Below, in pieces: positions 17,321 to 40,700 of a stretch of 64,000 bases of DNA. The notes under the pieces were generated by a model. The model saw only the letters and a program-made list of their open reading frames with translations. It made no database searches and had not been told where the DNA came from. How positions within the stretch are numbered: the stretch's first letter is position 1; every line of letters starts with the position of its first letter. Origin of the DNA: Laetmonice hystrix (lineage: Eukaryota); the NCBI GenBank assembly GCA_965235115.1, contig OZ249436.1, positions 26,910,001 to 26,974,000 on the forward strand, written 5' to 3'. A program made the translations under genes and the position numbers.

Positions 17321-17748
17321 ATAATAAAGATTCAGTGTTTAAAGTGTAAGATACTGCCTCTACCCGGACAATAACAAAGATTATTTCCTTGAGTTCTAGC
17401 GGTTCGGCCAATTACATCCCACTTTTATACACAGACTGGCTACAATTATGTTTTGTAGTTTGGAGAAGGGTATAAAACCGGCTACCATCAGCAATTATCG
17501 CAGCACGATACATGTATTCGGTTTTTGTCATATTGTGTGCAAACGTATAATCTACTTTAGAGAAAGTCTTGTCTTTCGCACACTGGTTTTTGAGGATACA
17601 CACGAGTCTTGCCGTGTCCACGTTCCCATAACCTCAAGGATTCTAGTATGTTTCCCCGAGATGGCTGCTTAATTCACATGATAAAACGCCACAGCTTTAA
17701 TTACAGCGGACGTCATAACTTGAGTTTCATGGAAGTGAAATAGTGTAC

Positions 17749-19198
17749 TACAAGGACGTGTGCACCTACACCCAATCCAGAAATATTGTAATACAAAGAC
17801 GTGTGCACCTACACCCAATCCAGAAATATTGTAATACAAGGACGTGTGCACCTACACCCAATCCAGAAATATTGTAATACAAGGAAGTGTGCACCTACAC
17901 TCAATCCAGAAATATTGTAATACAAGGACGTGTGCGCCTACACCCAATCCAGAAATATTGTAATACAAGGACATGTGCACCTACACCCAATCCAGAAATA
18001 TTGTAATACAAGGACGTGTGCACCTACACCCAATCCAGAAATATTGTAATACAAGGACGTGTGCACCTACACCCAATCCAGAAATATTGTAATACAAGGA
18101 CGTGTGCACCTAAACCCAATCCAGAAATATTGTAATACAAGGACGTTTGTACCAACACCCAATCCAGAAATATTGTAATACAAGGACGTGTGCACCTACA
18201 ACCAATCCAGAAATATTGTAATACAAGGAAGTGTGCACCTACACTCAATCCAGAAATATTGTAATACAAGGACGTGTGTGCCTACACCCAATCCAGAAAT
18301 ATTGTAATACAAGGACGTGTGCACCTACACCCAATCCAGAAATATTGTAATACAAGGACGTGTGCACCTAAACCCAATCCAGAAATATTGTAATACAAGG
18401 ACGTTTGTACCTACACCCAATCCAGAAATATTGTAATACAAGGACGTGTGCACCTACACCCAATCCAGAAATATTGTAATACAAGGACGTGTGCACCTAC
18501 ACCCAATCCAGAAATATTGTAATACAAGGACGTGTGCACCTACACCCAATCCAGAAATATTGTAATACAAGGACGTGTGCACCTACACCCAATCCAGAAA
18601 TATTGTAATACAAGGACGTGTGCACCTAAACCCAATCCAGAAATATTGTAATACAAGGACGTTTGCACCTACACCCAATCCAGAAATATTGTAATACAAG
18701 GACGTGTGCACCTACACCCAATCCAGAAATATTGTAATGTAGAAGGACGTGTGCCCCTACACCCAATCCAGAAATATTGTAATGTAGAAGGACGTGTGCC
18801 CCTACACCCAATCCAAAAATATTGTAGTACAAGGACGTGTGCACCTACACCCAATCCAGAAATATTGTAATACAAGGACGTGTGCACCTAAACCCAATCC
18901 AGAAATATTGTAATACAAGGACGTATGCACCTACACCCAATCCAGAAATATTGTAATACAAGGACGTGTGCACCTAAACCCAATCCAAAAATATTGTAAT
19001 ACAAGGACGTGTGCACCTAAACCCAATCCAAAAATATTGTAGTACAAGGACGTGTGCACCTACACCCAATCCAGAAATATTGTAATACAAGGACGTGTTA
19101 CACCCAATCCAGAAATATTGTAATACAAGGACGTGTGCACCTAAACCCAATCCAGAAATATTGTAATACAAGGACGTGTGCGCCTACACCCAATCCAG
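17749..19198. repeat. 43-bp minisatellite, about 34 copies
   Basis: Unit aatattgtaatacaaggacgtgtgcacctacacccaatccaga; ccagaaatattg recurs at 17777, 17820 and onward (period 43). Highly homogeneous. Confidence 0.97.
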
Positions 19199-20976
19199 CA
19201 ATTTGTTGAAAGGAAGTCCACGCATATTTTGTCAGTCACCAAGAACTAAATGTTGTATCACGTCACATCTTTTGTAATAATTTATTGATATGATTGCATT
19301 CAATGAAAACCTTTTTGACATAACTTTTTTTTTGAAAATTAAACTGGAACTTTGTTCTCAATGTTTTCTTTAAAAACTTGAAGATTTGCTTTTAAAAGAA
19401 TGGCTTCAAGTTTGATGGCTGTGGTTCCGACGTGCACCTATATCGCTCGTCCCCCATCACGATTGGTTGCTGATTGGGCATCCGCCGTCATTTCATTTCA
19501 TAGGCAATCAATACGGTTAATTAAACCGTAACGCTTGCCACAATATGTTTCTCCATGGTGATGAAAACAAATAAGATCTGTTGACAGCTTGTGAAATTAC
19601 ACGTTCCGGTGCAAATTAAAAAGATCCTGGCGATATAATTAAATCGGCTAAAGTTGCGAAATTGTTACTGTTAATGATCCACGTTGAATTCGGCCTTTAA
19701 TCAAAGAGTTCCGTCCTGCAGTCTGTGCGAGAGCTAATGAACAATCAGTCGATTTATGTCACATGTCCCCTTGTCGCATTCAAAACGGCAATACGAATTT
19801 TCGTGGGCTAGCTCGCACTTGGAAAGTGTCTTCGTCATCTGACATAGATTAGAAGTGAACTCCGCGTAATGATAGCTCAAAATGGGCCATATTGGCAAAG
19901 ATCAAAGACATTGTCTGGCTGATAATGATGCAGAGTGGCAGGTTGTAAAATGCAGGGGGTGACTGTCCCGCCCACCAGCGTCACAGTGACAAGGGCACGC
20001 GCCAATCTTGTGTGACGTAATGAATCGGGCAGACGACATCACTTGTTCCATTCCCTGGAAAAACAAAGACTATACCTGCGACGCGGTGCGGTTGCTCTTT
20101 GATACTATTTAAATGCTCCTCTATGAAAAGGCATAGTTACGAATGAAGGACGGCAGATAACTATATCATGAACAACTTTACTGGAGGCAGCTTCATAGTG
20201 AAACAAACCTGTGTACGGTGCTGTTGCTCTTGGCGGGTTTATTATGAATGCTGAAATAGGCGTACTCTTTCCTCCAGAGAGGAGTAGTCTAGGAGCTAAA
20301 TCCCTGCTGCAGGTCGTACAATTACGTAATTGTTTAGGCGAAGCCGGGGAAGGAAACGTCCTCCGCTTGATCGGTTTTTAGACAGATCCAAATTAATGCT
20401 ATTAGCATTTTTAACATCAAACGTGAATTAAAATTAATGAAGGTCGCCGATTAATCAGATACTGATTCCGCAGATTCTTAGCTATAGCATAATTCAACAG
20501 ATCTGTGATTATTTTCATTTAAATTTATGTTTCAGCCTACCACATTTTTAAAAGATCATAGCATGATATTATACATGATATAAGATTTACTAGTGTACAG
20601 CTGATGTTGAAGTGCTATAGTATTGACCTAAATACATGTTAGTGAACGAGAACTAGTAGAGTCTACTGCCCTTCTCCCGAAACGTCATCAACAGGCAGTA
20701 AATACGACCCGGTTCAATTTCATCCCTATCATCCGATCATCTGCCGGATTAAGTGGTGAAGCCCCAAATACCACATGACCACCTTGATCTGTCGGTGTCA
20801 CGCGACCGGATTAATGTCATCCCGAGAGGTGTTTAATTAGAGGTGGCCTGCTGTGTTGATTAGGTGAGGAGTCGACATAATCAACTCTCAAAGTGAGCTC
20901 CTGAATCTTTATGTACATAAGTCATGAACGGCAGAGAGGTGCTTCACGCAGGAGGCACGACCTTGTATGAACATGA

Positions 20977-26900: not shown

Positions 26901-27781
26901 TAACCAACCAATCAATACCCAAACCTGACCTTACCAACCAATCAATACCCAACCCTGACGTTACCAACCAATCAATACCCAACCCTGACCTCACCAACCA
27001 ATCAATACCCAACCCTGACCTTACCAACCAATCAATACCCAACCCTGACGTTACCAACTAATTAATACCCAACCCTGACGTTACCAACCAATCAATACCC
27101 AACCCTGACCTCACCAACCAATCAATACCCAACCCTGACGTTACCAACTAATTAATACCCAACCCTGACGTTACCAACCAATCAATACCCAACCCTGACC
27201 TCACCAACCAATCAATACCCAACCCTGACCTCACCAACCAATCAATACCCAACCCTGACGTTACCAACCAATCATACCCAACCCTGACGTTACCAACCAA
27301 TCAATACCCAACCCTGACCTCACCAACCAATCAATACCCAACCCTGACGTTACCAACCAATCACACCCAACCCTGACGTTACCAACCAATCCATACCCAA
27401 CCCTGACGTTACAACCAATCATTACCCAACCCTGACGTTACCAACCAATCCATACCCAACCCTGACGTTACAACCAATCAATACCCAACCCTGACGTTAC
27501 AACCAATCATTACCCAACCCTGATGTTACAACCAATCCATACCCAACCCTGACGTTACAACCAATCAATACCCAACCCTGACGTTACCAACCAATCAATA
27601 CCCAACCCTGACGTTACCAACCAATCAATACCCAACCCTGACGTTACCAACCAATCAATACCCAACCCTGACGTTACCAACCAATCAATACCCAACCCTG
27701 ACGTTACAACCAATCATTACCCAACCCTGATGTTACAACCAATCAATACCCAACCCTGACGTTACCAACCAATCAATACCC
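26901..27781. repeat. 30-bp minisatellite, about 30 copies
   Basis: Unit taccaaccaatcaatacccaaccctgacgt, with tgacctc and 29-bp variants. Confidence 0.97.
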
Positions 27782-28182
27782 ACCCGTCACGTTGTACCCC
27801 CAAAAATCAGGATTCAAACACCTGGGGAAAAACAGAAAGCTGATAGAAGCGGATCTACGGAAGAATTAATCGCCTTTATCCGAGCAGATAATCCGATTCG
27901 ATCTCGGCTTTTTTTAACAGGATTAGACTTACCTGTCTGCATAAATGTTGATCCGCAGGTTTGCCATGTTAACCTGGTTAAAGGATATATACCATTAGGG
28001 TCATGAATATTCACAGGGAGATTTAGCGGCTGACGGTGTCATCCACTGATAATCTTCGATTATACATATAGGCCAACACCGCTCCCCTTTATTAGATTTT
28101 GGACTTAGCTATGAAAACTTTGGAAACATGGCCTTTTGTCAAATATATTTTAATATTCTTTTAAAACCGTCCGAGGGAAGCT

Positions 28183-31563: not shown

Positions 31564-32123
31564 GCAGGTGTGATGTGGTAAAGTGACCCCGTGGTAAAGT
31601 GACCAGGGGTCAATTTACCACGTGGTAAATCGACCCCCAGGTCACTTTACCACAGTGGAAAAGTGACCTCCCCTGTGGAAAAATGACCCAGGTTGAATAA
31701 CATAGATATTAGGCATAACGTCTTTACATTGGAATCTATCGTTATTTTCCTGCTTCTTGGTATTTTTCAACAGTTTTGACACATGTTCAGCAGTACTCAC
31801 TTTCGCGATTTGCGCAAGTTTAAAAGGGCAAACCAGCAGATACGGGTGCTACCTGTACGCCCCTCGGTTAGGGTTAAGGTAAGTTTAGGGTTAGGTCTAT
31901 TTGAATTAACACTATTTGCAAATTGCGCACATTGACAAATTGAGTACGACATGTGAACAAAAACATCCTTTTGTATCCTTTCTATAAATATCAAAAATAA
32001 ACAGAACAAGAAATGTCTTAACTTTTCCTTGATGGTCAGATTACCACAGGGAGGGTCACTTTTCCACTGTGGAAAACGGGGGGTCAATTTACCACGGGGG
32101 TCAGTTTTCGATGTGACACCGGC
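31564..32123. mobile_element. MITE with long imperfect TIRs (G[C/A]GGTGT-type termini)
   Basis: Left end gcaggtgtgatgtggtaaagtgacccc...ccacagtggaaaagtgacctcccctgtgg; right end reverse-complements to gccggtgtcacatcgaaaactgacccccgtggtaaattgacc...ccacagtggaaaagtgaccctccctgtgg. Central ggttagggttaagg tract. Confidence 0.8.
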
Positions 32124-32602
32124 CGGCCGGGCCAGTGGATAAGGGCCCGTATTCATAAAAGCAGACCGAATAAGTAGGCCTACTCACTTAAATTAGGCAC
32201 TCCGAATAAGTCGAATTCAATATGCTAAGTTATGTCGTGCAAACCACCGGAAATGGCCCCTACATTATTGACAAATTGAGTACGACATGTGAACAAAAAC
32301 ATCCTTTTGTATCCTTTCCATAAATATCAAAAATAAACAGAACAAGAAATGTCTTAACTTTTCCTTGATGGTCAGATTACCACAGGGAGGGTCACTTTTC
32401 CACTGTGGAAAACGGGGGGTCAATTTACCACGGGGGTCAGTTTTCGATGTGACACCGGCCGGCCGGGCCAGTGGATAAGGGCCCGTATTCATAAAAGCAG
32501 ACCGAATAAGTAGGCCTACTCACTTAAATTAGGCACTCCGAATAAGTCGAATTCAATATGCTAAGTTATGTCGTGCAAACCACCGAAAATGGCCCCTACA
32601 TT
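31931..32602. repeat. 336-bp tandem duplication (31931-32266 / 32267-32602)
   Basis: Near-identical copies with two substitutions seen; the duplicated ORFs in the track are offset by 336. Confidence 0.95.
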
Positions 32603-32813: not shown

Positions 32814-33566
32814 CACTGTAGATTCTATTGTACAAAATAAGAGAGGTAAAAATGAGCTATTGCTATATTGTATCCTTCAATTCAATAGAGACGTTTCGCT
32901 TTTAGACTATGCTGGGGTGATAATTAATCGTTGTTTGTGTACGGAATTGTGATGTGGTCATTTTGCTGTCATTGTGTACCATTATTGTAACTCACTAGGC
33001 TAACCCTTTCGATATAAAGGGTTAAGTTGCGTCACCATGGGGAATATTTTAAAAATATTAGAAGCAAATGGTAATTCACATAGCACAGTTGAATATTATT
33101 ACAAGACGTGCGCGCCCTGTCCTTGGCAGGTTGCCTAACTCCAGGAAATCAACCGAAACCACAAGGAAATGTGACATAATATTATCACTGTAAAAAAAAT
33201 ACCGTGGTTTTTACGGAAAATTACCGTTTTCTTGCACGGTAAATTACCGTTATTTGAAATACGGGGAAATATAGTTCAGTCAACACTCACAAGGTGGCGG
33301 AACACGGATTCACTTCAAAGTAACCAAGCACGAGTTGACTTTCTACCCCGACGTGTCATATAATAGGGCCTACCTGCGAAAGCCGGCTAATGCGACCACG
33401 TGCATAATATTAATAATACGGAGTGTCTACTGCCAAAGTACTTTGGGTGGAAGACGACCAAAACGCTATTGTCAAAGTACCAATCAGAAGCTTTGTTACA
33501 TATGACCTCGATTTATTGGCGCCAAGACTAGGACCAGGAGGTGCCATCTTGACTAGTCCTGCTATA

Positions 33567-33733
33567 ATGAAGCTGGGTGACACGTTTCCGACGGACCATA
33601 GCTTTTCTGAGGCATTTGACCAGTACAAGCAGGGTCAGAATGTTGTTTATCACATATACGCCTCAGAAACTGTGAAGACGTATCTAAAAAAACACCCAGG
33701 AAGACAAGACATACGGATCCCAGAGGGGATAAG
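33567..33733 (+). pseudogene. First-exon relic of a MULE transposase-like gene (ZSWIM3/FAR1-like N-terminal region)
   Basis: ATG at 33567 gives MKLGDTFPTDHSFSEAFDQYKQGQNVVYHIYASETVKTYLKKHPGRQDIRIPEGIR, ending at donor AG|GTTAGT. The pattern M.LG..F....F..AF..Y resembles, from memory, the ZSWIM3-type N-terminus of animal MULE proteins. It lies just inside the left TIR. Confidence 0.55.
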
Positions 33734-33860
33734 GTTAGTACATTTCTACATTATTTGACATGATTAACGGTAACTCAGAGCGAAGTTAAAATCATTTTGC
33801 CATGATTGTTACAGGGGTGCAACAAGGCAAGACCTTAGCTATTACAGGTGTGATTATGAT

Positions 33861-35003
33861 ACGCCCTACCCCTTGCTGCCACAGTACTTTGGCAGTAACA
33901 ATGCAGCCTAACGCCTTGCCCCTTGCTGCCACAGTACTTTGGCAATAACAATGCAGCCTAACGCCCTACCCCTTGCTGCCACAGTACCTTGACAATAACA
34001 ATGCAGCCTAACCCCCTACCCCTTGCTGCCACAGTTACTTTGGCAATAACAATACAGCCTAACCCCCTGCCCCTTGCTGCCACAGTACCTTGGCAATAAC
34101 AATGCAGCCTAACGCCCTGCCCCTTGCTGCCACAGTACCTTGGCAATAACAATAGAGCCTAACGCCCTACCTCTTGCTACCACATTACTTTGGCAATAAC
34201 AATGCAGCCTAACGCCCTACCCCTTGCTGCCAAAGTTACTTTGGCAATAACAATACAGCCTAACCCCCTGCCCCTTGCTGCCACAGTTACTTTGGCAATA
34301 ACAATGCAGCCTAACCCCCTGCCCCTTGCTGCCACAGTACCTTGGCAATAACAATGCAGCGTAACGCCCTGTCCCTTGCTGCCACAGTACCTTGGCAATA
34401 ACAATGCAGCCTAACCCCCTACCTCTTGCTACCACATTACTTTGGCAATAACAATGCAGCCTAACGCCCTACCCCTTGCTGCCACAGTACCTTAGCAATA
34501 ACAATGCAGCCTAACCCCCTACCCCTTGCTGCCACAGTTACTTTGGCAATAACAATGCAGCCTAACCCCCTGCCCCTTGCTGCCACAGTACTTTGGCAAT
34601 AGCAATGCAGCGTAACGCCCTGCCCCTTGCTGCCACAGTACCTTGGCAATAACAATGCAGCCTAACCCCCTACCTCTTGCTACCACATTACTTTGGCAAT
34701 AACAATGCAGCCTAACGCCCTACCCCTTGCTGCCACAGTACCTTGGCAATAACAATGCAGCCTAACCCCTTACCCCTTGCTGCCACAGTTACTTTGGCAA
34801 TAAAAATACAGCCTAACCCCCTGCCCCTTGTTGCCACAGTTACTTTGGCAATAACAATGCAGCCTAACCCCCTGCCCCTTGCTGCCACAATACTTTGGCA
34901 ATAACAATGCAGCGTAACGCCTTGCCCCTTCCTGCCACAGTATCTTGGCAATAACAATACAGCCTAACGCCCTGCCCCTTGCTCTCACATTACCTTGGTA
35001 ATA
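33861..35003 (+). repeat. 50-51 bp tandem array, about 22 copies (left arm inside the MULE)
   Basis: Unit gcctaacgccctaccccttgctgccacagtaccttggcaataacaatgca. Confidence 0.97.
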
Positions 35004-35166
35004 TCTCATCAGAAACCATGCCATCTGTCATTTCAGTTAAAATTGATAGACTCTTTGATTACTTCCACTGTAACCATAAACTTTACCATTTATGGCAAAG
35101 AGACTGATCAATTTGGTAAAAATAAAATTGATTTATTGATGAGTGTCGACATTCTTGTTAATTCAG

Positions 35167-35400
35167 AATGCAGATGCACTCGTGAGAGGAGTGGCACCTC
35201 CATCACTCACGCAGCTCCACGTACCAGACTACCGCCAACATACGTACCAGCAGTCCTTGGCCGAACCATTCAAATGACTGTGGAGCGAGGGACTGCACAG
35301 GGACTGGCCGCGCCAAAAAATCCAGTGCGACAATTGTCATGTCTGGTTTCATTATCAATGTGAACAGCTTAGACAACGGAAACCAAAGCTGACAACATCG
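35167..35400 (+). pseudogene. Degenerate exon: C-terminal end of a Ulp1/SENP (peptidase C48)-like domain plus a partial PHD finger
   Basis: After acceptor ttcttgttaattcag|, the frame reads NADALVRGVAPPSLTQLHVPDYRQHTYQQSL (compare the SENP tail pattern AD.....P..FTQ.H.P..R). Shifted frames then give CGARDC (35279) and IQCDNCHVWFHYQC (35320), a PHD C4HC3 core. A stop and frameshifts are present. Confidence 0.7.
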
Positions 35401-35411
35401 GTTAACAAATT

Positions 35412-36980
35412 GTTACTGTGGCAGCAAGGGACGGGGGGTTAGGCTCTATTATTATTGCCAAGGTACTGTGGCAGCAAGGGGTAGGGGGTTAGGCTGCATT
35501 GTTATTGCCAAAGTAATGTGGCAGCAAGGGGCAGGGCATTAGCTGCATTGTTATTGCCAAGGTACTGTGGCAGCAAGGGGTAGGGCGTTAGGCTGCATTG
35601 TTATTGCCAAAGTAATGGTGCAGCAAGGGGTAGGGGGTTAGGATGCATTGTTATTGCCAAGGTACTGTGGCAGCAAGGGGTAGGGGGTTAGGCTGCATTG
35701 TTATTGCCAAGGTACTGTGGCAGCAAGGGGTAGGGGGTTAGGCTGCTTTGCTATTACCAAAGTACCCTGTGGCAGCAAGAGGTAGGGGGTTAGGCTGCTT
35801 TGCTATTACCAAAGTACTGTGGCAGCAAGGGGTAGGGGGTAAGGCTGCATTGTTATTGCTAAGGTACTGTGGCAGCAAGGGGTAGGGCGTTAGGCTGCAT
35901 TGTTATTGCCAAGGTACTCTGGCAGCAAGGGGTAGGGGGTTAGGCTGCTTTGCTATTACCAAAGTACTGTGGCAGCAAGATGATCGAGGTAGGGGGTTAG
36001 GCTGCTTTGCTATTACCAAAGTACTGTGGCAGCAAGGGGTAGGGGGTAAGGCTGCATTGTTATTGCCAAGGTACTGTGTCAGCAAGGGGTAGGGCGTTAG
36101 GCTGCATTGTTATTGCCAAAGTAATGGTGCAGCAAGGGGTAGGGGGTTAGGCTGCATTGTTATTGCCAAGGTACTGTGGCAGCAAGGGGTAGGGGGTTAG
36201 GCTGCTTTGCTATTACCAAAGTACTGTGGCAGCAAGGGGTAGGGGGTTAGGCTGCATTGTTATTGCCAAGGTACTGTGGCAGCAAGGGGTAGGGGGTTAG
36301 GCTGCTTTGCTATTACCAAAGTACTGTGGCAGCAAGAGGTAGGGGGTTAGGCTGCTTTGCTGTTACCAAAGTACTGTGGCAGCAAGGGGTAGGGGGTAAG
36401 GCTGCATTGTTATTGCCAAGGTACTGTGGCACCAAGGGGTAGGGCGTTAGGCTGCATTGTTATTGCCAAGGTACTGTGGCAGCAAGGGGTAGGGGGTTAG
36501 GCTGCATTGTTATTGCCAAAGTAATGTGGCAGCAAGGGGCAGGGCATTAGCTGCATTGTTATTGCCAAGGTACTGTGGCAGCAAGGGGTAGGGCGTTAGG
36601 CTGCATTGTTATTGCCAAGGTACTGTGGCACCAAGGGGTAGGGCGTTAGGCTGCATTGTTATTGCCAAGGTACTGTGGCAGCAAGGGGTAGGGGGTTAGG
36701 CTGCATTGTTATTGCCAAAGTAATGTGGCAGCAAGGGGCAGGGCATTAGCTGCATTGTTATTGCCAAGGTACTGTGGCAGCAAGGGGTAGGGCGTTAGGC
36801 TGCATTGTTATTGCCAAAGTAATGGTGCAGCAAGGGGTAGGGGGTTAGGATGCATTGTTATTGCCAAGGTACTGTGGCAGCAAGGGGTAGGGGGTTAGGC
36901 TGCATTGTTATTGCCAAGGTACTGTGGCAGCAAGGGGTAGGGGGTTAGGCTGCTTTGCGATCACCAAATTACTGTTGCCA
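35412..36980 (-). repeat. 50-bp tandem array, about 31 copies, inverted relative to 33861-35003 (right arm inside the MULE)
   Basis: Unit tgcattgttattgccaaggtactgtggcagcaaggggtagggggttaggc, the reverse complement of the left-arm unit. Confidence 0.97.
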
Positions 36981-37566
36981 CTGGTTTCCACTTTTTCCAA
37001 GTGTTCCATATTACTATACAGATTCAGGCCAAATTACCGCAGGCTGTTTTACTGTAACTCGCGAAAGAAGTTCCGAAAGGCTTTTTTTCAGGGTTACACA
37101 GTTTCGCATGTTAATTGGCATCTCCAAATTATATAGGCCTACATGTATATAAGTAGGCCTACATTACCTTGACTACGTCAGCAAACTACGAGTATACCTT
37201 TTGCTTTTTACACCTAAGATTTTCTCCACACCGACAGTTGTAATTCTCTATGTCCAATGTGAAGGGTCGTTGGCAATAAAGCTCATGTTCAAAATATAGT
37301 ACCACTTGACTTCCTGACTTTATTCTGTCAATAAACGTCATGTTAAGACAGCGTCACCTGACAAAGTACTTCGCCATCGAAAATGTCCCTGTGTGTCATG
37401 AAAAAGTGTGTCAAAACTAAATCTCAGGTCCAGAGATTTCATGTTCCCAGACAAAAAGGACGTTGGCTCAGTAGGTCATGCTTATAAATTGTAGTACATG
37501 TATAGACCTAATCACACTTTTTCCTGTCAAAGTAGGCCTACTTTGGTATTAAAAACCGTATTGATA

Positions 37567-37719
37567 CAGGGCGGATGCGGGATTTAGGAAGGGGCGGGGT
37601 TAAGGGAAGAATTTTCTGGGGGAGAGGAGTAGTCATGGACAATTAAGACAGTTTTAAGGGTGAAAAAAAAGACAAAATTGGCTAGGGGGGTTAACTCCCT
37701 ACCCCCGGATCCGCCACTG
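37567..37719. mobile_element. Small hAT-like MITE inserted in the MULE
   Basis: cagggcggatgcggga ... cccggatccgccactg (reverse complement cagtggcggatccggg). No clean 8-bp TSD. Confidence 0.6.
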
Positions 37720-40700
37720 ATATAACGCGATAATAGTCTGAACGTCCCCTAACAACTTTTGTGCTTTCACACTTCAGTGTATGTGTACCCATAGACTTTG
37801 GTAACAGCGCTTCCAGACAAAGTTCTTCGTCCACATGTGCAATAAGAGTTCCTGATAAAGTTGCTGCCAAAGTACTTTGATACTGAAGCTCACGGTCTTC
37901 TGCACAATCGTGTGGCTTTATAATGCGGACACAGTACTTTGTTACATGCATCAACCCCGAGTTGACCGTATACATGTTTCTTGCTTCCAAAGTACTTTGG
38001 CAGGATCAGGCAACAAGCAGTTTGTAAGCCAGTCGCCCATTGGTACTTTGGCAGCAATTACCCTGGCTTGTTGCTGCCAAAGTAGAAATACTGTATTTTG
38101 ATTGGTACTTTGGCAATAGCCTTTTGGTGGTCTTTCGCCCAAAGTACTTTGGCAGCAGCCATTGCCTTAATAATAATATTGATACAGTCTTTGTCACAAA
38201 GTGTAACGTGGAATGTCAAATTGGGACCTAATTATGAAGTGGGATTCATCAACAGCTTTTGAAAACATCCTCTTTAGAGGCTAGATGACCTTATTATATA
38301 GGCCTATGTATTGACTCCTTGGGTAGGAAAGTCCAAGATTTCACGCGGAGTAGCCCCTTTTGCTGCAGACGTTTGAACTTTTATACGAATGGACCTGTTG
38401 GGACTCGTCCGGTTCGCACCGAGACTGGCTCAAAACGAAATCGATTCGATATGTTTGCCCCCCCCCCCCCTCCCTTCGCCCGGGCTTCGTTAATTGCGGC
38501 TTTTCCGTTTTCCCCCCGTGAAATTTACGGCGGTAATTCAGCATTTTTACCTGAAATTCACGGTAATCTACCGGCAGCCCATGCAGCTGCCGGGATTTTT
38601 ACTGTAAAAAACGGGATATTTTTTTCAGTGTAGGTCTAAGCCCTTAGCAACCACTTGAGAAGCTTCCCCTGACTTTGCGCGGGGTAGGCCTACTGAATAA
38701 AGTGGGACACATAGGCATAGAGTCTAAGCTTGTTTATAAATCTCAACTTACGCAGGCTTACCCCACCTACCTCAGTAGACTGCACTATATAGATTTGAGG
38801 GGTCTTAAATTAAGACGTTTTATGAATACGGGCCCTGACAATGGAAGCCGAGAGAAGTGAAAACTTGGGTTTTACGTACAAGTTATGCTTAATACATTAT
38901 TTCCCACCAGAGGTCGCCTATGACATGAATGGTTTGCTTACTCGCCGTCTGAGGGCCGATCAACTGCTGGTCAACTCTATACTTCCATCAGGCTCGTATA
39001 GTAGGCCGAAGGGGTCCACACAACCAACACCTTCCCCACACTCACTACCACAGGGTGATGAAACGAATGGGGCCTATTGTGACCCGGGCCCCAAGGGGAA
39101 TGACAATGATCATAAATGATGATAAGATGACTCGATTTCCCAACCCCTATAATATGGCTAACTGGCCGTGTGACTTTAACCCTAACCACTCAGCCAACAC
39201 CTTCCCCCCTCTTTCCAATCCCAATGATATGGTTGACTGGCCCTCAGATGTTACCCCTAACCACTCAGCCAACACCCTTCATGTTCCCAATCCCCATGAT
39301 ATGGCTGACTGGCCCTCACTCATTACCCCGAACCACTCAGCCAACACCCTCCCTCTACCCAATCCCCATGATATGGCTGACTGGCCCTTAGACATTACCC
39401 CGAACCACTCAACCAACACCCTCCCTCTTCCCAATCCCCATGATATGGCTGACTGGCCCTCAGACATTACCCCGAACCACTCAGCCAACACCCTCCCTCT
39501 TCCCAATCCCCATGATATGGCTGACTGGCCCTCAGACATTACCCCGCACCACCCAGCCAACACCCTCCCTCTTTCCAATCCCCAGGATATGGCTGACTGA
39601 CCCTCAGACATTACCCCGAACCACTCAGCCAACACCCTCCCCCTTCCCAATCCCCATGATATGGCTGACTGGCCCTTAGACATTATCCCAAAGCACCCAG
39701 CCAACACCCTCCCCCTTCCCAATCCCCATGATATGGCTGACTGGTCCTCAGACATTACCCCGAACCACAGAGCCAACACCCTCCCTCGACCCAATCCCCA
39801 TGATATGGCTGACTGGCCCTCAGACATTACCCCGAACCACTCACAGCCAACACCCTCCCTCTTCCCAATCCCCATGACATGGCTGACTGGCCCTCAGACA
39901 TTACCCCGAACCACTCAGCCAACACCCTCCCTCTTCCCAATCTCCATGATATGGCTGACTGGCCCTTAGACATTACCCCGAACCACTCAGCCAACACCCT
40001 CCCACTTCCCAATCCCCATGATATGGCTGACTGGCCCTTAGACATTACCCCGAAACACTCAGCCAACACCCTCCCTCTTGCCAATCCCCATGATATGGCT
40101 GACTGGCCCTTAGACATTACCCCGGACCACTCAGCCAACACCCTCCCTCTTGCCAATCCCCATGATATGGCTGACTGGCCCTTAGACATTACCCCGAACC
40201 ACTCAGCCAACAGCCTCTCTCTTCCCAATCCCCATGATATGGCTGACTGGCCCTTAGACATTACCCCGGACCACTCAGCCAACACCCTCTCTCTTCCCAA
40301 TCCCCATGATATGGCTGACTGGCCCTTAGACATTACCCCGAACCACTCAGCCAACAGCCTCCCCCTTCCCAATCCCCATGATATGGCTGACTGGCCCTCA
40401 GACATTACCCCGAACCACTCAGCCAACACCCCCCCTTCCCAATCCCCATGATATGGCTGACTGGCCCTCAGACATTACCCCGAACCACCCAGCCAACACC
40501 CTCCCTCTTCCCAATCCCCATGATATGGCTGACTGGCCCTTAGACATTACCCCGAACCACTCAGCCAACAGCCTCCCCCTTCCCAATCCCCATGATATGG
40601 CTGACTGGCCCTTAGACATTACCCCGAACCACTCAGCCAACACCCTCCCTCTTGCCAATCCCCATGATATGGCTGACTGGCCCTTAGACATTACCCCGAA

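What the first reader, a model, noticed from the sequence alone, without database searches (positions are those of the whole stretch)
33419..38166. Mutator-like element whose own TIR palindrome is amplified into two inverted internal arrays (foldback-like architecture)
Seen: each TIR carries the palindromic core TGCCAAAGTACTTTGG(CA). The same core (tgccacagtac[c/t]ttggca) is the centre of a 50-51 bp unit repeated about 22 times on + (33861-35003) and about 31 times on - (35412-36980). These form ~1.1/1.6 kb inverted arms around a ~410 bp spacer that holds the Ulp1/PHD exon. Single motif copies are also scattered at about 37360, 37526, 37865, 37930, 37985 and 38040. Established: transposases bind repeated motifs in TIRs, and foldback elements are MULE relatives with modular repeats. 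Inference: these are massed transposase-binding sites placed internally, apparently intronic rather than terminal. They could act as a transposase sink or enhancer, a hairpin/siRNA source for self-silencing, or a route from transposon to satellite DNA.
Basis: partly seen in the sequence, partly recalled or inferred. Interest (0 to 1): 0.8.

Follow-up and report, generated by a model that had tools for sequence, protein, structure and literature searches.

The report
Mutator derivative with exon-flanking inverted arrays
This is a 4.7-kb gutted jumping gene, likely of the Mutator type and repeated in its genome, with two opposed runs of a 50-base repeat likely grown from its own end motif, one in a likely spliced-out intron and one behind the last exon, so it is a rearranged form of known foldback elements whose repeats are predicted to form an RNA hairpin only before splicing.

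Summary
The structure is real. Element 33419-38166 has a perfect 9-bp target duplication, 66-bp TIRs (88%) and two inverted 50-bp arrays (22.7 and 30.8 units) that share the TIR motif. Contigs from four runs of one sample show a multi-copy family and support the inverted layout. It is a non-autonomous deletion derivative: half a ZSWIM3_N domain, a frameshifted PHD finger, no DDE core. Ulp1 was not confirmed.

(1) Only the left array is intronic: a likely RNA run joins exon 1 (33733, GT) to 35167 (AG) and runs from the PHD exon into the right array. (2) The arrays are degenerate: 0 of 52 units keep both CAAAGTA half-sites and 26 keep one, and the core varies as much as the linker, whereas the dispersed TIR/subterminal copies conserve it. 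The likely working sites are therefore the dispersed ones; the arrays are likely slippage-grown by-products with weak binding at best.

Close precedents exist (Tetris, Rehavkus, Muta1, Galileo, VANDAL). What differs is the internal, exon-flanking position, which predicts a ~1.1-kb hairpin in pre-mRNA that splicing removes. Verdict: new variant of a known kind, moderate interest.

The parts
33410..33418 (+). left copy of 9-bp target-site duplication TTAATAATA
33419..33489 (+). left TIR; outer palindromic site at 33431-33448 and inner half-site at 33470
   Evidence: 66 bp, 87.9% to right TIR
33567..33733 (+). exon 1 coding part (ATG 33567); first ~44 of 102 positions of ZSWIM3_N; ends at GT donor 33734. 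Covered from 33441 by contigs of likely RNA run X4
   Evidence: (E 8.9e-5, below cut-off)
33734..35166 (+). intron as spliced in X4 (GT..AG); contains the exon-2 stump and the left array
33815..33860 (+). exon-2 stump after AG acceptor 33813-14, in frame with exon 1, cut sharply by the left array (inferred deletion breakpoint)
   Evidence: P0001 keeps the same intron/acceptor region
33861..35003 (+). array A1, 22.7 units of 50-51 bp, 5-unit higher-order repeat; sharp left edge, decayed right edge; intronic
35167..35442 (+). last exon coding remnant: unassigned 36-aa frame (35167-35274), then a PHD finger split over two frames (35186-35320 and 35317-35439); the second frame runs into A2 and stops at 35440-42
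   Evidence: (PHD E 4.8e-6)
35412..36985 (-). array A2, 30.8 units, inverted to A1; starts at the end of the PHD; inside the X4 transcript (3' untranslated part)
36986..38095 (.). unique 3' segment with dispersed motif copies (37359, 37525, 37865, 37934, 37985, 38043, 38075), denser towards the right end; AATAAA at 37275 and 37330
38096..38166 (-). right TIR with half-site at 38105 and palindromic site at 38137-38154
38167..38175 (+). right copy of the 9-bp target-site duplication

Best explanation
The element is a non-autonomous deletion derivative, likely of a Mutator-type (Rehavkus/foldback-like) transposon, that would be moved in trans by a family transposase likely binding the CAAAGTA half-sites in its TIRs and subterminal region, while its two 50-bp arrays likely grew by slippage from one such palindromic site and now sit on either side of the last exon. 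SHOWN: TSD, TIRs, motif identity, array layout, multi-copy contigs, and a GT-AG joint from exon 1 to the last exon that removes A1 and keeps A2. INFERRED: one internal deletion from exon 2 into A1 removed the transposase core, so in the parent both arrays lay at the 3' end of the gene. The arrays had one origin, then expanded separately (private variants and higher-order repeats), perhaps with some exchange. They are not held to the binding consensus, so they would add at most weak, avidity-type binding (26 intact half-sites). PREDICTED: unspliced RNA folds A1 on A2 into a ~1.1-kb imperfect duplex with the 3' splice site in its loop; splicing removes one arm, so the mature RNA has no long duplex and encodes only a 61-residue stub that is probably inert.
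For: TSD and TIR. ZSWIM3_N half-domain and PHD, no DDE ORF. Unit matches TIRs and subterminal sites beyond 200 of 200 shuffles; best match 21 of 23 at the site near 37985. Dispersed copies: only 2 of 20 mismatches fall in the 7-bp core (p 1e-6); core 7-mer 16 times in 2,031 non-array bp against 5 in 34,388 bp outside. Arrays: 0 of 52 units with both cores, 26 of 52 with one; core variability 0.065 vs linker 0.051 in the 41 ungapped 50-mers. Unit differences within arrays 4.9/5.3 vs between 5.5, Fst-like 0.07, p 0.017; longest exact repeat 121/300 bp within, 76 bp between. Splice joint seen from both sides in X4, with no X4 cover at 33756-33843 or 35006-35157 where X1-X3 have cover; X4 contig running PHD exon into A2, and A2 into the 3' unique part. 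Single contigs at depth 2,100-4,200 over exon 1, intron and spacer, against about 27-50 for the shallowest listed; 8 X3 records with the right-TIR start and discordant flanks. MFE: 1,083 of 1,143 A1 bases pair with A2, longest helix 76 bp.
Against: No full-length parent or DDE transposase was found, so superfamily and the parental position of the arrays are inferred. The ZSWIM3_N hit is below Pfam's cut-off (23.4 vs 27.8 bits). X4's kind is not on record, and its contigs differ from the window at sites not seen in X1-X3 contigs (33526, 33575, 35207, 35262, 35371), so they likely come from another copy. All four runs are one sample of one study and may be the window's source. No listed contig bridges the exon-2/A1 junction, and the A1 inner-end contig has 30 unique bases, one short of the tool's bridging rule. 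The core-conservation test uses a consensus taken from the TIR, which is partly circular. Half the units keep an intact half-site, so real binding is not excluded.
Confidence: 0.65

Rival explanations
1. The arrays are selected secondary transposase-binding sites (enhancer or sink), as in Muta1 and Galileo, and helped this derivative spread.
For: The motif is confined to the element; 26 of 52 units keep an intact core and most others differ by one base. More subterminal repeats raise Muta1 binding and excision (PMC5499845, passages); Galileo TIR repeats bind the THAP domain (PMC3688188, passages). The arrays appear shared by high-depth family contigs.
Against: The core is no better conserved than the linker; no unit has both half-sites; the substituted positions are invariant in the 18 dispersed copies. 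The arrays lie 0.44 and 1.2 kb from the ends, while the tested repeats lie within TIRs. One X3 contig of a relative leaves the PHD into 255 bases unlike the laid stretch, which included A2 units.
Confidence: 0.2
2. The inverted arrays are kept because the pre-mRNA hairpin feeds small-RNA silencing or editing that restrains the family, with splicing speed setting the dose.
For: Predicted 1.1-kb duplex; the family is likely transcribed, and A2 stays in the spliced RNA as a potential target. Long MULE inverted repeats are linked to siRNAs (PMC6446971, section 6 part 1).
Against: No small-RNA data; any inverted pair of arrays folds like this, so the fold shows no selection; spliced contigs exist, so the hairpin does not block the acceptor; X4 differences show no A>G excess (1 of 7 listed changed places; contigs are insensitive to this).
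Confidence: 0.08
3. A1-spacer-A2 is a separate foldback element or satellite fragment inserted into the MULE, with the 50-mer living independently in the genome.
For: The A1 left edge is sharp. Rough depth arithmetic gives 3.6-12.6 kb of array per exon-1 equivalent against 2.7 kb here, so some 50-mers may lie outside copies like this one.
Against: The spacer holds an exon spliced to exon 1 of the same element; the unit carries the host element's own TIR motif; the outer edges are unlike each other and A2's is decayed; the depth excess is under fivefold and the estimate is crude.
Confidence: 0.05
4. The inverted orientation is an assembly artefact.
For: Arrays of 90% identity are hard to assemble; no listed contig spans the element; the runs may be the window's own sample.
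Against: Contigs join spacer to A2 in the window's orientation in X1, X3 and X4, A1 to spacer in X3 (depth 2,755) and A2 to the 3' segment in X4; each array has private variants.
Confidence: 0.02

Closest known systems
Rehavkus elements (Mutator superfamily in the broad sense; PMC6446971 passages and section 6 part 1; 10.1101/2024.12.02.626372 and PMC10218199 passages)
   Same: 9-bp TSD, TIR within 26-400 bp, PHD finger, minisatellite at the C-terminus before the 3' TIR; tandem repeats in inverted orientation.
   Different: In Tribolium Rehavkus the arrays are described in the inverted termini; here they are internal, the outer segments (442 and 1,181 bp) share only the 66-bp TIR and short motifs, and coding exons lie outside the left array. 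No transposase core to place it in the clade.
Tetris of Drosophila virilis (PMC4079207, passages)
   Same: Non-autonomous, 8-10-bp TSD, inverted internal tandem arrays set in from the ends, whose unit shares 37 bp (~80%) with the outer TIR domain; proposed Mutator; seeds satellite DNA.
   Different: Tetris arrays are part of long symmetric TIRs (flanking domain up to 866 bp) around a non-coding middle; here the flanks are asymmetric and the arrays bracket a spliced exon.
Muta1 of Aedes aegypti (PMC5225508, PMC5499845, passages) and Galileo (PMC3688188, PMC3573991, passages)
   Same: Repeated binding motifs, palindromic terminal motif (Muta1), secondary sites in tandem repeats shown to bind transposase.
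   Different: Their repeats lie within the TIRs; here the array copies deviate from the conserved core and lie 0.4-1.2 kb inside. Galileo is a P-superfamily element.
VANDAL/VANC of Arabidopsis (PMC5735166, passages)
   Same: A MULE whose short protein-binding motif accumulates by tandem-repeat formation in non-coding parts, introns included.
   Different: The motif is read by the anti-silencing protein VANC and arrayed in the same orientation; no such gene was found here, and the arrays are inverted and derived from the TIR motif.

Membership tests
Mutator/MULE superfamily | 8-11-bp (usually 9-bp) target-site duplication | tested here: met
   TTAATAATA both sides
Mutator/MULE superfamily | terminal inverted repeats | tested here: met
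   66 bp, 87.9%
Mutator/MULE superfamily | MULE-type DDE transposase in the family's autonomous member | not testable with these tools
   This copy has no core ORF; no full-length relative found; no genome held
Mutator/MULE superfamily | N-terminal zinc-finger DNA-binding domain of MULE transposases | tested here: inconclusive
   ZSWIM3_N positions 1-44 of 102, E 8.9e-5, below cut-off; the same weak hit in P0001-P0004. The link between ZSWIM3_N and MULE transposases is recalled; PMC10236294 passages tie only the SWIM domain to MuDR
Rehavkus | PHD finger at the end of the coding region | tested here: met
   PF00628 E 4.8e-6, 26.9 bits vs cut-off 24; frameshifted in the window
Rehavkus | minisatellite at the C-terminus, before the 3' TIR | tested here: met
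   The PHD frame runs into A2 and stops at 35440; definition from PMC6446971
Rehavkus | tandem repeats located in both long inverted termini | tested here: not met
   Outer segments match only over 66 bp plus short motifs; exons 1 and 2 lie outside A1
Rehavkus | transposase in the Rehavkus clade | not testable with these tools
   core absent; Repbase not available
Foldback elements (Tetris / type-2 foldback) | long inverted arms made of tandem repeats able to fold back | tested here: met
Foldback elements (Tetris / type-2 foldback) | arms form the termini or are continuous with symmetric flanking domains | tested here: not met
Ulp1/Peptidase_C48-carrying MULE | Ulp1 protease domain | tested here: inconclusive
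   No Pfam hit on the 35- and 45-aa frames, 0 PDB hits at E 10, no relevant Atlas hit, no homologue. The 36-aa frame resembles a SENP/Ulp1 C-terminal tail only from recall
VANDAL/VANC anti-silencing system | element-encoded VANC-type protein binding the arrayed motif | tested here: not met
   No such ORF in the element

The most novel reading that the evidence does not exclude
A Mutator-type family has built, from its own transposase-binding palindrome, a split hairpin across its last splice acceptor: one arm in the intron, one in the 3' untranslated part. Unspliced transcripts would then form a kilobase duplex that feeds silencing or editing against every family member, while spliced ones escape. 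This would be a splicing-gated self-limiter that also leaves dozens of weak transposase sites on the DNA.
Probability: 0.1. Interest if true: 0.7.

Novelty: new variant of a known kind. Interest (0 to 1): 0.4.

Why it matters
Most parts are known: MULE foldbacks amplify TIR-derived repeats, and some seed satellites. This family offers a clean test of why. It carries conserved dispersed sites and degenerate arrayed sites of the same motif in one element, so binding and excision assays can separate selection for binding from neutral slippage. The intron/3'-untranslated split of the arms also lets one test whether splicing controls dsRNA output from a transposon. If neither effect is found, it is an ordinary non-autonomous MULE with minisatellites.

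Tried and rejected
No genome is held, so the genome-wide BLAST was not possible. No RNA holder is listed on record; X4's RNA nature is my inference.

Full-length transposase searches were all blank: protein collection; metagenomes; GTDB; viral. One search gave 5 hits: 4 short exon-1-like peptides and 1 unrelated bacterial surface protein (P0005, dropped). The DNA around P0001-P0009 could not be fetched.

DNA patterns: 0 hits in metagenome and viral contigs; 1 hit in a Limnohabitans contig, rejected as chance (0.15 expected; only a 17-bp match). Atlas searches were uninformative. Rfam: 0 hits. Earlier findings by place, sequence and one word search: none.

Rejected: NDCG as proof of Ulp1 (it precedes a Cys four residues on and the PHD half); the X3 'opposite strands' joint 34931-35426 (array units that fit both arms); a link to the window's 43-, 30- and 72-bp arrays (scores 11-18).

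Literature: searches showed no description of inverted TIR-derived arrays flanking a terminal exon. The library lacks Repbase Reports and most subscription papers; Marquez and Pritham 2010 and the sea-urchin TU papers were not read; I opened no supplements, and the Tribolium preprint's Fig. S15 schematics could show a similar layout.
Full report
Observation. The element runs from 33419 to 38166, flanked by the perfect 9-bp duplication TTAATAATA. Its TIRs align over 66 bp at 87.9%, and beyond that the two outer segments share only short motif hits. Tandem Repeats Finder gives 22.7 units at 33861-35003 and 30.8 units at 35414-36957, period 50, in opposite orientation. The half-site TGCCAAAGTAC with up to one mismatch occurs 91 times in the element and never in the other 59 kb. 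A unit dimer aligns to each TIR and to the right subterminal region better than 200 of 200 shuffles, best 21 of 23 bases near 37985, and better than all 463 control tiles. The perfect 18-bp palindrome is in neither TIR nor array.

Coding remnants. Exon 1 (ATG 33567) matches the first 44 of 102 positions of Pfam ZSWIM3_N (E 8.9e-5, below cut-off); 35317-35390 matches PHD (E 4.8e-6, above cut-off). There is no transposase core. An in-frame exon-2 stump starts at 33815 and is cut sharply by A1 at 33860, whereas A1's other edge and A2's outer edge are decayed. I infer one deletion from exon 2 into A1, which would put both arrays at the 3' end of the parent gene. The PHD is split by a frameshift that most DNA contigs lack (an extra A at 35314), but the frame before it ends in a stop at 35272-74, so the exon looks decayed. 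Ulp1 found no support; the 36-aa frame's likeness to a Ulp1 tail is recalled, not tested. Four short relatives were found among 1.84 billion representatives, and four more in their clusters; all are short exon-1-type peptides from ENA contigs. P0009 begins with LPKYF, which is how the TIR motif reads in one frame of the window, a hint that the motif is shared by an element only 45% identical in exon 1.

Other copies and RNA. Four runs hold the stretch, all from one sample of one study, kinds not on record. In X1-X3 single contigs cover exon 1, the intron and the spacer at depth 2,100-4,200, against about 27-50 for the shallowest listed contigs, and 8 X3 records carry the right-TIR start with discordant flanks. 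This indicates a multi-copy family, perhaps of order 100; the tool warns that depth is not copy number. Contigs join A1 to the spacer (X3, depth 2,755, 30 unique bases), the spacer to A2 (X1, X3, X4) and A2 to the 3' segment (X4). No listed contig bridges exon 2 and A1. X4 (58 million letters) behaves as RNA: one contig joins 33733 to 35167 exactly at GT..AG, seen from both sides, and X4 has no cover at 33756-33843 or 35006-35157. A 356-base X4 contig runs from the last exon into A2. So A1 is intronic and A2 is in the transcript. The spliced frame ends after 61 residues. X4 differs from the window at several sites absent from the DNA contigs, so another copy is likely the one transcribed. One X3 contig leaves the PHD at 35367 into 255 unlike bases whose first 30 read, by hand, as VQPKPFTCTR, an intact-looking PHD end; this suggests a relative without A2 at that spot. 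Rough depth arithmetic gives 3.6-12.6 kb of array per exon-1 equivalent against 2.7 kb here: no sign of a vast independent satellite, but some excess is possible.

Are the arrays binding sites? The 18 dispersed half-sites have 20 mismatches, only 2 of them in the core CAAAGTA (p 1e-6), and the core occurs 16 times in 2,031 non-array bases against 5 in 34,388 outside, rising towards the right end. That is the pattern of a real binding motif, although the consensus came from the TIR. In the arrays 0 of 52 full units keep both cores and 26 keep one; the 18-bp core varies as much as the linker (0.065 vs 0.051, 41 ungapped units). Units differ little more between arrays than within (5.5 vs 4.9 and 5.3; Fst-like 0.07, p 0.017); each array has private variants and its own higher-order repeat, and the longest exact match is 76 bp between against 121 and 300 bp within. 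This fits one origin followed by separate slippage growth, without clear selection for the motif.

Mechanism. Most likely the element is moved in trans by a family transposase that reads the TIR and subterminal sites (inferred from the TSD, motif conservation and the Muta1 and Galileo experiments). The arrays would add weak avidity at most. In unspliced RNA 1,083 of 1,143 A1 bases are predicted to pair with A2, longest helix 76 bp, with the acceptor in the loop; splicing removes that arm. Whether the duplex is diced or edited is untested, and any inverted array pair would fold this way.

Comparison. Rehavkus elements have a 9-bp TSD, a PHD finger and a minisatellite before the 3' TIR (PMC6446971, passages and section 6 part 1), with tandem repeats in inverted termini that can expand into satellites (10.1101/2024.12.02.626372 and PMC10218199, passages). 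Tetris has inverted internal arrays whose unit derives from its outer TIR domain (PMC4079207, passages). Muta1 repeats raise binding and excision (PMC5499845, PMC5225508, passages), Galileo repeats bind transposase (PMC3688188, PMC3573991, passages), and VANDAL motifs form arrays in introns (PMC5735166, passages). Passages of PMC3169594, PMC10236294 and PMC13359780 were also read; they add that foldback structure arose repeatedly. The element works like these but fails the 'arrays in symmetric termini' test, and its transposase clade cannot be tested, so I file it as a probable non-autonomous MULE, Rehavkus-like, not as a Rehavkus or classical foldback. Eight searches showed no element with inverted TIR-derived arrays flanking a terminal exon, but Repbase, subscription papers and supplements were not seen. 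Two earlier scan notes on other genomes describe foldback MULEs filed near Rehavkus; they are unchecked leads.

Verdict. Real, multi-copy, and mostly explained by known biology. The new points are the internal, exon-flanking position of the arms, the likely spliced transcript that keeps one arm, and the contrast between conserved dispersed sites and degenerate arrayed ones. New variant of a known kind; interest 0.4.

Noticed in passing
window 33186-33226 and 38591-38630: A short imperfect inverted repeat starting CACTG brackets the element further out, and the flanks are themselves multi-copy; the element may be nested in an older DNA transposon.
   Followed up: partly
window 39137-63998: A 25-kb satellite of 72-bp units (342.6 copies) starts 1 kb to the right of the element; unrelated to the 50-mer.
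   Followed up: partly
window 17737-19206, 26903-27793, 31931-32602: Further arrays: 43 bp x 34, 30 bp x 30, and a 336-bp tandem duplication at 99%.
   Followed up: no
run X4 contig laid at window 35163-35194: A second contig (depth 14) joins a different 26-base stretch, absent from the window, to the same acceptor; joined in phase 0 it keeps the 36-aa frame open. It may be the parent's upstream exon or another copy's intron end.
   Followed up: partly
run X3 contigs at window 35118-35367: A low-depth relative about 92% identical over the last exon, and a contig that leaves the PHD into different sequence with an intact-looking terminal Cys region.
   Followed up: no
P0009 (ENA contig, unnamed): A predicted protein starts with the TIR motif read as LPKYF, 33 residues before its exon-1 homologue, hinting at the same motif in a distant relative.
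   Followed up: partly
window 33417-33758: The exon-1 frame is open from the very start of the left TIR (113 codons without a stop); probably chance.
   Followed up: no
window 33404-33491: Summed contig depth over the TIR is 4-12 times that over exon 1, more than two ends per copy might give; short TIR-only derivatives may be common, though overlap of short contigs inflates this.
   Followed up: no
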